A DNA stretch of 64,000 bases, from NCBI RefSeq assembly GCF_045037415.1, contig NZ_CP173438.1; one strand, written 5' to 3'. The position numbers and the translations under genes are program-made. Below, piece after piece: positions 54,975-55,796 of the stretch. The DNA comes from Escherichia coli. GTDB taxonomy: Bacteria > Pseudomonadota > Gammaproteobacteria > Enterobacterales > Enterobacteriaceae. The notes beneath the pieces were generated by a model that saw nothing but the letters and a program-made list of their open reading frames with translations, was not told the DNA's origin and ran no database searches. Position 1 is the first letter of the stretch, and the number at the start of each line of letters is the position of its first letter.

Positions 54975-55796
54975 ATGATGCACAGGTTGAATCTCAATGG
55001 CTATGAACCCGACCGACACCATGAAGCCGCGGTCGCATTTTGTATTCACGCCGGAACGGATGAGTTAACCAGTCCTGTACATCAGCACCGCAAAGGGCAG
55101 TTGATACTGGCACTACATGGTGCAATTACCTGTACGGTAGAAAATGCTTTGTGGATGGTGCCGCCACAATATGCGGTTTGGATACCGGGCGGGGTGAAAC
55201 ATAGTAATCAAGTGACAGCTAACGCCGAACTCTGTTTTCTGTTTATCGAGCCCAGCGCAGTGACAATGCCGACAACATGTTGCACATTGAAAATATCGCC
55301 CTTATGCCGGGAATTAATTTTAACCCTGGCAAACAGGACGACGACTCAGCGTGCTGAGCCGATGACCCGCAGATTAATTCAGGTCCTGTTTGATGAACTC
55401 CCTCAGCAACCACAACAACAGCTGCACTTGCCCGGTTCTTCTCATCCTAAAATCCGCACGATGGTGGAGATGATGGCGAAAGAGCCCGTCGAGTGGGGCT
55501 CATTGAGGCAATGGGCTGGCTTTTTTGCGATGAGTGAACGCAATCTTGCCCGGCTGATAGTGAAAGAGACGGGGTTGAGTTTTCGCCAGTGGCGTCAGCA
55601 GTTACAGCTGATTATGGCGCTTCAGGGATTAGTGAAAGGCGATACTGTACAGAAAGTTGCTCATACACTGGGGTATGATTCAACAACGGCCTTTATTACT
55701 ATGTTTAAGAAAGGCCTGGGGCAAACGCCAGGCCGATATATTGCGGGATTAACTACTGTTTCCCCACAATCAGCGAAACCAGACCCGCGGCAATAA
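54975..55796 (+). CDS. yeaM: AraC/XylS-family transcriptional regulator (NimR)
   Basis: 273 aa; cupin N-domain plus C-terminal AraC HTH; divergent from yeaN. Confidence 0.85.

What the first reader, a model, noticed from the sequence alone, without database searches (positions are those of the whole stretch)
55753..55796. 44-nt convergent overlap of the yeaM and yeaL 3' ends
The two ORFs on opposite strands share 44 bp at their stop-proximal ends, so full-length transcripts of each are necessarily antisense to the other, with potential for transcriptional interference. The ptrB/exoX pair shows a smaller 4-bp convergent overlap at 9333..9336.
Basis: seen in the sequence. Interest (0 to 1): 0.2.

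Follow-up and report, generated by a model that had tools for sequence, protein, structure and literature searches.

The report
Ordinary tail-to-tail nimR/yeaL gene overlap
Two neighbouring E. coli genes on opposite strands (nimR, formerly yeaM, and yeaL) share their last 44 bases, but this is an ordinary, already annotated result of a stop codon that drifted, not a new regulatory device.

Summary
nimR (yeaM; + 54975..55796) and yeaL (- 55753..56199) overlap by 44 nt, and ptrB/exoX overlap by the 4-nt TTAA at 9333..9336. RefSeq annotates the same overlap in E. coli SK1144, K-12 W3110 and O157:H7. A 2025 paper (ExcludonFinder) already lists yeaL-nimR among 165 convergent transcript overlaps of MG1655.

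The overlap is best explained as a by-product. NimR's DNA-binding domain ends about aa 255-258, just before the yeaL stop. The last ~15 NimR codons are an unconstrained tail read antisense to the conserved C-terminus of YeaL.

In 14 sequences with the 44-nt overlap, YeaL's last 14 residues are invariant. Every variable site is synonymous for yeaL and changes NimR. The length is not conserved: 17 nt in most genera, 44 only in E. coli and Citrobacter, 0-21 in Salmonella, small gaps elsewhere, and nimR is absent in about 20 loci.

One extra feature emerged. A GC hairpin with a T-run (55705..55734, yeaL-sense) lies inside the nimR coding sequence and is kept by synonymous-site conservation in Escherichia/Citrobacter/Salmonella. 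It is probably yeaL's terminator.

A regulatory effect is untested. Interest is low and the feature is already known.

The parts
54975..55796 (+). nimR (yeaM) CDS, 273-aa AraC-family regulator of 2-nitroimidazole resistance
   Evidence: ORF. Pfam AraC_binding/Cupin plus HTH_18. RefSeq annotation. Described as a 273-aa single-target TF in PMC5934670.
55753..56199 (-). yeaL CDS, 148-aa DUF441 inner-membrane protein
   Evidence: ORF. Pfam DUF441 covers aa 7-145, profile 1-139/139. 464 relatives confirmed by tblastn; the 80 best, kept as loci, are 81-100% identical.
55753..55796 (.). 44-nt tail-to-tail CDS overlap. It encodes YeaL aa 135-148 plus stop on the - strand, and NimR aa 260-273 plus stop on the + strand.
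   Evidence: In the window plus 13 Citrobacter loci, the YeaL residues are invariant and all 12 variable columns are synonymous in yeaL. There are 322 pairwise differences that are nonsynonymous in nimR and synonymous in yeaL, and 0 that are nonsynonymous in yeaL.
55512..55739 (+). NimR HTH_18 DNA-binding domain (aa 180-255). The functional end of NimR lies about 14 nt before the yeaL stop codon.
   Evidence: NCBIfam AraC-type models also end their match at aa 252-258.
55749..55793 (+). Unconstrained NimR C-terminal tail (aa 259-273), variable in sequence and length among relatives
   Evidence: Tails (264, 265, 273 aa and others). Residue variation.
55767..55769 (+). CAA (Gln) in the window. 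This is the position of the TAA/TGA stop used by most other genera (17-nt overlap, 264-aa NimR). The stop is lost where YeaL residue 145 is Val (GTG) instead of Ile (ATY).
   Evidence: by reading the yeaL codons.
55794..55796 (+). nimR stop codon TAA, built from the yeaL codons Leu135 (CTT) and Ile136 (ATT). It exists only if the Leu codon ends in T or C.
   Evidence: Among 14 sequences position 55795 is only A or G (TAA/TGA), although other fourfold sites nearby show transversions.
55713..55734 (-). 7-bp GC-rich hairpin GGCCTGG-N8-CCAGGCC. It starts 19 nt downstream of the yeaL stop and lies inside the nimR codons for G-L-G-Q-T-P-G-R. Candidate yeaL intrinsic terminator.
   Evidence: Terminator-like scan. 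Free energy -14.1 kcal/mol. The stem is perfect in 20 of 22 Escherichia/Citrobacter/Salmonella sequences and broken in all other genera despite the same peptide. The stem's synonymous sites have entropy 0-0.27 bits against 0.83-1.93 for the 20 other fourfold sites.
55705..55712 (-). T-run following the hairpin on the yeaL-sense strand (TTTCTTAA in the window; TTTTTT in Citrobacter and most Salmonella, CTTTTT in one). It is the reverse complement of the nimR Lys-Lys codons.
55750..55950 (+). C-rich, G-poor stretch (GC skew -0.18 to -0.29) directly after the nimR stop. No intrinsic terminator is predicted on the + strand. A Rho-dependent end of the nimR transcript here is an inference only.
   Evidence: Composition. 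No + strand terminator-like site downstream of the nimR stop up to 56600.

Best explanation
The 44-nt overlap is a passive, lineage-specific 3' extension of nimR into the end of yeaL.

The two genes are packed tail to tail so tightly that NimR's DNA-binding domain ends about 14 nt before the yeaL stop codon. Whatever follows in the nimR frame is translated until the first stop. That sequence is dictated by yeaL, whose C-terminal residues belong to the conserved DUF441 domain.

In most Enterobacteriaceae a TAA falls 17 nt into yeaL, giving a 264-aa NimR. In E. coli and most Citrobacter, YeaL residue 145 is Val (GTG) rather than Ile. This turns that stop into CAA, so NimR reads 9 codons further to a TAA/TGA formed by the yeaL Leu135-Ile136 codons (273 aa, 44-nt overlap).

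yeaL 'owns' the shared bases. NimR's tail simply tolerates whatever yeaL's synonymous sites spell. The only visible reciprocal constraint is that the stop codon is kept.

At the RNA level the 3' ends interdigitate. A conserved hairpin plus T-run inside the nimR coding sequence (55705..55734, yeaL-sense) probably terminates yeaL transcripts. nimR transcripts must run at least to 55796 and, lacking an intrinsic terminator, probably end by Rho somewhere antisense to yeaL. The mRNAs are therefore complementary over at least 44 nt, and about 90 nt if the hairpin is the terminator.

This is a catalogued convergent transcript overlap whose regulatory effect, if any, is probably small.

Shown: the geometry, the domain limits, the substitution pattern, the length variation, and the synonymous-site conservation of the hairpin. 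Inferred: that the 17-nt state is ancestral, that the hairpin terminates yeaL, that Rho ends nimR transcripts, and that regulation is weak or absent.
For: Geometry and annotation.

Domain limits: HTH_18 ends at aa 255 of 273, and DUF441 covers aa 7-145 of 148. AraC-type NCBIfam models end their match at aa 252-258.

Overlap length among 59 loci with a nimR-like sequence convergent on yeaL (57 with an intact nimR; L003 carries an internal deletion and L034 looks like a pseudogene): 17 nt in about 30 loci (Klebsiella, Raoultella, Enterobacter, Kluyvera, Leclercia, Lelliottia and others). It is 44 nt in 13 Citrobacter loci (L011, labelled Raoultella MAG, looks like Citrobacter) plus E. coli; 20/21/0/6/45 nt in others; and gaps of 1-181 nt in 10. 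The stop positions trace to specific yeaL codons.

Substitution pattern in the overlap: YeaL is invariant, with 322 pairwise differences nonsynonymous for nimR and synonymous for yeaL, and none nonsynonymous for yeaL. Only 38 of 132 possible single changes fall in that class.

Chance: the stop density in the frame is 9/149 codons.

Hairpin.

Literature: convergent overlaps arise by 3' extension after stop-codon loss (PMC2478687; PMC4161906). E. coli has 58-75 of them, and in about a third one partner's rho-independent terminator lies in the other's coding sequence (PMC2174442; PMC4161906). yeaL-nimR is listed as a convergent excludon (PMC12288877).
Against: No experimental 3'-end data for either gene could be found. 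The Term-seq and SMRT-Cappable-seq supplements held here have no yeaL/nimR entry.

The tight tail-to-tail arrangement, within -5 to +45 nt, is itself conserved in most genera that carry nimR. This leaves room for selection on close packing or on transcript overlap.

The nimR stop at 55794-96 and the hairpin both show signs of selection. The junction is therefore not entirely neutral.

The stability of the hairpin region alone is not unusual: 16.5% of synonymous recodings of the same peptide fold at least as well, and the z-score against shuffles is -1.29.
Confidence: 0.8

Rival explanations
1. The overlap is a selected regulatory module (a functional excludon). Transcription of nimR through the end of yeaL, or of yeaL into nimR, lowers the partner's expression by polymerase collision or by RNase III cleavage of the RNA duplex. 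This would couple the nitroimidazole response to YeaL levels.
For: yeaL-nimR is in the published 'excludome' of MG1655. The tail-to-tail junction stays within -5 to +45 nt in most genera that have nimR. A hairpin inside the junction is under synonymous-site selection.
Against: Any pair of expressed genes with overlapping CDSs meets the ExcludonFinder criterion automatically, so the listing shows overlap, not regulation. The overlap length is not conserved, and about 20 of 80 yeaL loci have no nimR at all. The NimR part of the overlap evolves without constraint. yeaL RNA levels are low in the one data set seen (36 and 67 normalised counts). NimR is described as a single-target regulator of nimR/nimT only.
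Confidence: 0.12
2. The 9 extra C-terminal residues of E. coli NimR are functional, and the overlap is maintained because both proteins need the shared bases (true dual coding).
For: The stop at 55794-96 is kept as TAA or TGA in all 14 sequences of the 44-nt group, so the 273-aa length is stable in that clade.
Against: 10 of the 14 tail residues in the overlap vary among those same sequences. Most genera, one E. coli-labelled genome (E69) and one C. youngae strain end NimR at 264 aa. The tail lies outside every domain model.
Confidence: 0.05
3. The overlap is an annotation or sequencing artefact (wrong frame, missed frameshift, or an earlier stop).
For: Published surveys found many long convergent overlaps to be 3'-extension misannotations.
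Against: Stop codons, unlike starts, are unambiguous. Both frames carry domain matches up to or near their ends. The same coordinates recur in independently sequenced K-12, O157:H7 and SK1144. The 71-nt junction is within 0-3 mismatches in 5407 genomes.
Confidence: 0.02

Closest known systems
Convergent (tail-to-tail) overlapping gene pairs of prokaryotes created by stop-codon loss and 3' extension (Rogozin 2002; Palleja 2008, PMC2478687; Lillo & Krakauer 2007, PMC2174442; Huvet & Stumpf 2014, PMC4161906)
   Same: Two genuine genes on opposite strands share their 3' ends. The overlap length is set by where the next in-frame stop falls. One partner is extended relative to its orthologues (273 vs 264 aa). 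The overlap is conserved only among close relatives. One partner's terminator lies in the other's coding sequence, as reported for about a third of E. coli convergent overlaps.
   Different: Nothing essential. 44 nt is longer than the modal 4 nt and the reported mean of 26 nt, but below the 60-nt limit above which overlaps are suspect.
Excludons / convergent transcript overlaps (ExcludonFinder, PMC12288877)
   Same: The pair is explicitly listed among 165 convergent excludons of MG1655, together with exoX-ptrB, yeaK-yoaI and yeaO-yoaF from this same window.
   Different: The defining functional property, mutually exclusive expression through interference or RNase III, has not been shown for this pair. 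Here the transcript overlap is forced by the CDS overlap rather than by long UTRs.
ptrB/exoX and rlmA/mntP 4-nt TTAA-type convergent overlaps in the same window
   Same: Same orientation class, and the same origin in stop-codon placement.
   Different: In those pairs only the two stop codons interlock, so no amino-acid codon is shared. In nimR/yeaL 14 sense codons of each gene are shared.
Rho-independent terminators embedded in the coding sequence of a convergent neighbour
   Same: A GC-rich stem, a T-run on the terminated strand, and a position 19 nt after the yeaL stop inside nimR.
   Different: The 3' end is not mapped experimentally. The T-run in E. coli is interrupted (TTTCTT). The element is not bidirectional: there is no T-run on the nimR-sense side, and it lies upstream of the nimR stop.

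Membership tests
Convergent overlapping protein-coding gene pair | Two ORFs on opposite strands whose stop-proximal ends share nucleotides | tested here: met
   54975..55796 (+) and 55753..56199 (-), 44 nt shared. Same in RefSeq annotation.
Convergent overlapping protein-coding gene pair | Both ORFs are genuine genes, with homology support reaching the overlapping ends | tested here: met
   DUF441 covers YeaL aa 7-145 of 148, so the overlap lies inside the domain. The NimR HTH ends at aa 255, so the NimR part of the overlap is a post-domain tail. Orthologues occur in dozens of genera.
Convergent overlapping protein-coding gene pair | Overlap conserved in orthologous pairs of other species | tested here: inconclusive
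   Some overlap (6-45 nt) is present in 47 of 59 loci (46 of the 57 with an intact nimR; L003 carries an internal nimR deletion and L034 looks like a pseudogene). The 44-nt length is confined to E. coli and Citrobacter. 17 nt is the commonest state. 10 loci have gaps and 2 have zero overlap.
Excludon (functional transcript overlap between opposite-strand neighbours) | Overlapping transcripts detected by strand-specific RNA-seq | not testable with these tools
   Literature only: listed as a convergent excludon in at least 50% of 58 MG1655 transcriptomes. No supplementary data held.
Excludon (functional transcript overlap between opposite-strand neighbours) | Mutually exclusive expression, or interference or RNase III processing caused by the overlap | not testable with these tools
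   No expression or RNase III data were available. The comparative data give no support: the length varies, the NimR tail is unconstrained, and nimR is often absent.
Intrinsic (Rho-independent) terminator, for the hairpin at 55705..55734 (- strand) | GC-rich stem-loop immediately followed by a U-tract, downstream of the stop codon of the terminated gene | tested here: met
   7-bp stem (6 GC pairs), 8-nt loop, then TTTCTTAA, starting 19 nt after the yeaL stop. The tail is TTTTTT in Citrobacter and most Salmonella (CTTTTT in one).
Intrinsic (Rho-independent) terminator, for the hairpin at 55705..55734 (- strand) | Structure conserved beyond what the overlapping coding sequence requires | tested here: met
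   In 22 Escherichia/Citrobacter/Salmonella sequences the 4 synonymous stem sites are the 4 least variable of 24 fourfold sites (rank probability 1/10,626, my arithmetic). The loop sites vary freely. The same peptide in other genera is encoded without the hairpin. Caveat: thermodynamic tests alone are not significant.
Intrinsic (Rho-independent) terminator, for the hairpin at 55705..55734 (- strand) | Mapped RNA 3' end at the U-tract | not testable with these tools
   No yeaL/nimR entry in the held Term-seq or SMRT-Cappable-seq supplements. Other data sets are not held.
Bidirectional terminator shared by convergent genes | A hairpin between the two stop codons, flanked by an A-tract and a U-tract so that it terminates both strands | tested here: not met
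   On the + strand the hairpin is followed by GATATATT, which is no U-tract, and it lies 60 nt upstream of the nimR stop. No + strand terminator-like site was found after the nimR stop.
AraC/XylS family regulator (NimR) and DUF441 membrane protein (YeaL) | Pfam domain match above the gathering threshold | tested here: met
   HTH_18 scores 67.2 bits (cut-off 33.6). DUF441 scores 151 bits (cut-off 26.5).

The most novel reading that the evidence does not exclude
The nimR/yeaL junction could be a selected, interdigitated 3'-end module. In this reading, a clade-specific hairpin kept by synonymous-site selection inside the nimR codons for GLGQTPGR acts as a one-way terminator: it stops yeaL transcripts but lets nimR transcription pass. 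Induced nimR transcription running antisense through yeaL would then down-regulate this uncharacterised membrane protein, linking nitroimidazole stress to YeaL levels.
Probability: 0.1. Interest if true: 0.3.

Novelty: already known. Interest (0 to 1): 0.1.

Why it matters
It matters little beyond bookkeeping. The pair is one of roughly 58-75 convergent CDS overlaps in E. coli and is already annotated and catalogued.

It does make a clean teaching example of how such overlaps arise. The stop codon of one gene is spelled by codons of the other: synonymous or conservative changes in yeaL switch NimR between 264, 265 and 273 aa. The locus also shows that a terminator can be maintained by synonymous-site selection inside a neighbour's coding sequence.

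If the transcript overlap were shown to regulate yeaL, it would give a first functional handle on a DUF441 protein. Nothing here indicates that.

Tried and rejected
1. My first cross-species table gave overlaps of 119-281 nt in many genera. That was an artefact: tblastn aligned NimR's tail through stop codons because the DNA is conserved by yeaL. Walking codon by codon to the first stop replaced it, and no overlap exceeds 45 nt.

2. Thermodynamic tests of the hairpin were not significant. The z-score against dinucleotide shuffles is -1.29 for the yeaL-sense strand, and 16.5% of synonymous recodings fold at least as well. The support for the hairpin therefore rests on comparative synonymous-site conservation, not on stability.

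3. Covariation analysis was not attempted. Each variable stem base pairs with a fixed first or second codon position, so compensatory double changes are impossible.

4. A search for experimental 3' ends or dsRNA led nowhere. The ExcludonFinder, Dar & Sorek and Conway papers have no supplements held here. The Adams 2021 Term-seq and the SMRT-Cappable-seq supplements have no yeaL/yeaM/nimR entry. Lybecker 2014 is not held.

5. Rfam found no RNA family at the junction. The only hit was a sub-threshold JUMPstart match at 55964-55993 (21.5 bits against a cut-off of 35), which I dismiss as chance.

6. The sigma-70 promoter scan of 54700-56600 found nothing.

7. Loci without nimR gave no consistent canonical terminator after yeaL: 1 of 21 had one. 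They neither support nor refute the terminator reading.

8. I did not compile a genome-wide length distribution of E. coli convergent overlaps, because annotation tables are not machine-readable here. I relied on published counts and on the 13 convergent pairs in this window.

Full report
OBSERVATION

The window is E. coli chromosome. It is 99.99% identical to strain SK1144 over all 64 kb, with 3 substitutions and one 1-nt deletion.

The ORF list gives a 273-aa ORF on the + strand at 54975..55796 and a 148-aa ORF on the - strand at 55753..56199. They share 55753..55796, which is 44 nt. The nimR stop is TAA at 55794-96, and the yeaL stop is TAG (CTA on the + strand at 55753-55).

RefSeq annotates the same two genes with the same overlap in SK1144, K-12 W3110 and O157:H7. 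The genes are nimR (old name yeaM) and yeaL. 5406 of 5426 complete E. coli genomes carry the locus. The 71-nt junction differs by 0-3 bases in 5407 of them.

WHAT THE TWO GENES ARE

NimR is an AraC-family regulator. It has a cupin/AraC-binding N-terminal part, HTH_18 at aa 180-255 and HTH_AraC reaching aa 256. AraC-type NCBIfam models likewise stop matching at aa 252-258. It is described as a 273-aa single-target regulator of nimR/nimT, which confer 2-nitroimidazole resistance (PMC5934670).

YeaL is a DUF441 membrane protein. The Pfam model covers aa 7-145 of 148, the whole profile.

For yeaL the shared 44 nt therefore encode the end of a conserved domain. For nimR they encode 14 residues beyond the last domain.

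IS IT MORE THAN CHANCE?

No. In the frame that nimR uses across yeaL, 9 of 149 codons are stops. The probability of 14 stop-free codons is about 0.4 (my arithmetic).

In this window 13 gene pairs are convergent by annotation. Their spacings are 55, -4, 0, 45, 143, -4, 3, 119, 92, 58, 21, -44 and 0 nt. Tight packing is the rule here, and nimR/yeaL is simply the longest overlap.

Published counts give 58 (PMC2174442) or 75 (PMC4161906) convergent CDS overlaps in E. coli. The mean overlap length over all orientations in 58 prokaryotic species is 26 nt.

COMPARATIVE EVIDENCE

A scan with YeaL returned 80 loci from different species. My first tabulation was wrong for many loci, because tblastn aligned the NimR tail through stop codons. 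The corrected analysis walks the nimR frame to its first stop.

Of the 59 loci with a nimR-like sequence convergent on yeaL (57 with an intact nimR; L003 carries an internal deletion and L034 looks like a pseudogene):
- About 30 have a 17-nt overlap (NimR 263-264 aa, stop TAA or TGA). These include Klebsiella, Raoultella, Enterobacter, Kluyvera, Leclercia, Lelliottia, Pluralibacter, one genome labelled E. coli (E69, NimR 88% identical), and C. youngae ATCC 29220.
- 13 Citrobacter loci share the 44-nt state with E. coli (L011, labelled Raoultella MAG, looks like Citrobacter).
- The C. amalonaticus group has 20 nt, Salmonella diarizonae 21 and S. arizonae 0.
- Trabulsiella has 6 and Yokenella 45.
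- Cedecea, C. werkmanii and Buttiauxella have gaps of 1-5 nt.
- Three loci have gaps of 122-181 nt.

About 20 loci have yeaL but no nimR next to it, including E. albertii, E. whittamii, Kosakonia and Phytobacter.

So the tail-to-tail junction is widespread but the 44-nt overlap is not.

HOW THE LENGTH IS SET

Reading the yeaL codons explains the three same-frame stop positions:
- The 17-nt stop (window 55767-69) needs yeaL '..TT|A..' or '..TC|A..', that is, Ile at YeaL residue 145. E. coli and most Citrobacter have Val (GTG), which makes it CAA (Gln).
- The 20-nt stop needs the preceding yeaL Leu codon to be CTT. E. coli has CTG.
- The 44-nt stop (55794-96) is formed by yeaL Leu135-Ile136 and exists only if the Leu codon is CTT (giving TAA) or CTC (giving TGA).

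Parsimony suggests that 17 nt is ancestral and 44 nt derived. This is an inference.

WHO OWNS THE SHARED BASES

In the window plus 13 Citrobacter loci with the 44-nt overlap, YeaL's last 14 residues are identical in all ([14 protein letters not shown]). All 12 variable columns are synonymous in yeaL. Ten of them are yeaL third positions that coincide with nimR second positions, so they change NimR.

There are 322 pairwise differences that are nonsynonymous for nimR and synonymous for yeaL. There are 40 stop-to-stop differences (TAA/TGA). None is nonsynonymous for yeaL, although only 38 of 132 possible single changes belong to the observed class.

The NimR tail varies at 10 of 14 positions. The one sign of reciprocal constraint is position 55795. 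It is only A or G, which keeps a stop, while neighbouring fourfold sites show transversions. No locus reads on to the next stop, which in the window is at 55920.

THE RNA ENDS

The consensus scan found a terminator-like site on the - strand at 55734..55713 (GGCCTGG-CGTTTGCC-CCAGGCC, then TTTCTTAAAC). It starts 19 nt after the yeaL stop and lies inside the nimR codons for G-L-G-Q-T-P-G-R. Its free energy is -14.1 kcal/mol.

Stability alone is unremarkable. The z-score is -1.29, and 16.5% of synonymous recodings fold as well.

The comparative signal is clear, however. The 7-bp stem is perfect in 20 of 22 Escherichia/Citrobacter/Salmonella sequences, and the tail is TTTTTT in Citrobacter and most Salmonella (CTTTTT in one). 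The four synonymous stem sites (Gly GGC, Leu CTG, Pro CCA, Gly GGC) have entropies of 0-0.27 bits. The 20 other fourfold sites of invariant residues in the last 56 nimR codons, including the two in the loop, range from 0.83 to 1.93 bits. The stem sites are the 4 lowest of 24, a rank probability of 1 in 10,626 (my arithmetic).

In all other genera the same peptide ([13 protein letters not shown]) is encoded with 2-3 stem mismatches. The peptide therefore does not force the hairpin.

The most economical reading is a clade-specific intrinsic terminator for yeaL embedded in nimR. This arrangement is reported for about a third of E. coli convergent overlaps. It is not bidirectional: the + strand has no U-tract after the hairpin, and the hairpin lies upstream of the nimR stop.

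No + strand terminator-like site follows the nimR stop up to 56600. The 200 nt after the stop are C-rich and G-poor (GC skew -0.18 to -0.29), which is compatible with Rho-dependent termination. That is an inference.

If these inferences hold, the two mRNAs are complementary over about 90 nt (55705..55796) or more.

REGULATION?

The ExcludonFinder paper lists yeaL-nimR among 165 convergent excludons found in at least 50% of 58 MG1655 transcriptomes. It also lists exoX-ptrB, yeaK-yoaI and yeaO-yoaF from this window. The criterion is overlap of coverage-defined transcript boundaries. Two expressed genes with overlapping CDSs meet it automatically, so it documents overlap, not regulation.

I found no 3'-end or dsRNA data for the pair. 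yeaL RNA counts were low in the one table seen (36 and 67). Given the variable length, the frequent absence of nimR and the unconstrained NimR tail, I rate a selected regulatory function at about 0.1.

VERDICT

The feature is an ordinary, already annotated and already catalogued convergent overlap, produced by stop-codon drift into a neighbour whose sequence is fixed by its own protein.

The only addition from this work is the evidence that yeaL's probable terminator is maintained by synonymous-site selection inside nimR, and that yeaL codon choices determine NimR's length. Interest is low.

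Noticed in passing
window 30108..30110 (mntP, - strand, CDS 29859..30425): The window carries T where the nearest genome SK1144 has C. 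This turns mntP codon 106 from TGG (Trp) into TGA (stop), so the manganese exporter gene is split into two ORFs (29859..30068 and 30108..30479). No complete E. coli genome matched window 30080-31600 at 100%.
   Followed up: partly
window ~31571 (manZ, - strand): A 1-nt deletion relative to SK1144 (GAGAGACC to GAGAACC) frameshifts manZ, the mannose PTS IID subunit. The reading frame stops at codon 238 instead of ending after 283 aa. The best E. coli hits span 1522 nt against the 1521-nt query, so the deletion looks private to this strain.
   Followed up: partly
window 30736 and 26256: These are the two other differences from SK1144 in the whole 64 kb. G/A at 30736 lies upstream of mntP in its 5' leader region. 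C/T at 26256 is synonymous in kdgR. Together with the mntP and manZ lesions, three of the four differences cluster within 1.5 kb.
   Followed up: partly
window 29859..29862 (rlmA/mntP); 13801/13802 (pphA/yebW); 56473/56474 (yoaI/yeaK); ~36084-36088 (yoaE/pdeD): There are further very tight convergent junctions that the finding did not mention: a second 4-nt overlap (rlmA/mntP), two pairs whose stop codons abut with zero gap, and one with a 3-nt gap. Three of 13 convergent pairs in the window overlap.
   Followed up: partly
L087 (E. coli 23CRST051) 1549-2301; L002 (E. coli ZH142) 3250-4000: IS1 has hit this junction in nature. In 23CRST051 an IS1B sits inside the overlap, and both genes are annotated with altered, longer C-termini (nimR 840 nt, yeaL homologue 501 nt). 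In ZH142 an IS1-associated deletion removes the nimR 3' part, yeaL, yoaI, yeaK and part of dgcJ.
   Followed up: no
L003 (Escherichia sp. MOD1-EC7003) 2473-2620: nimR carries an internal deletion that fuses the sequence just after the yeaL stop (up to the 5' arm of the hairpin) to nimR codons ~42-2. This leaves a 48-codon remnant that ends exactly at the yeaL stop.
   Followed up: no
L035, L037-L043, L045, L053, L077 (Kosakonia, Phytobacter and others), first 90 nt after the yeaL stop: Where nimR is absent, a different conserved sequence (…CTGCACAGCAGGTAATAGACCAGNCCGGTAAAGA…) begins immediately after the yeaL stop. It looks like the 3' end of another convergent gene. yeaL therefore seems to be tightly abutted by a convergent neighbour in several unrelated contexts.
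   Followed up: no
window 56200..56370 (yoaI/yeaL divergent intergenic region): According to PMC10294691 a PhoB site lies between yoaI and yeaL. yoaI is strongly PhoB-activated (12,266 vs 28 counts) while yeaL stays low (36 vs 67). Induced yoaI transcription runs straight into the convergent, abutting yeaK.
   Followed up: no
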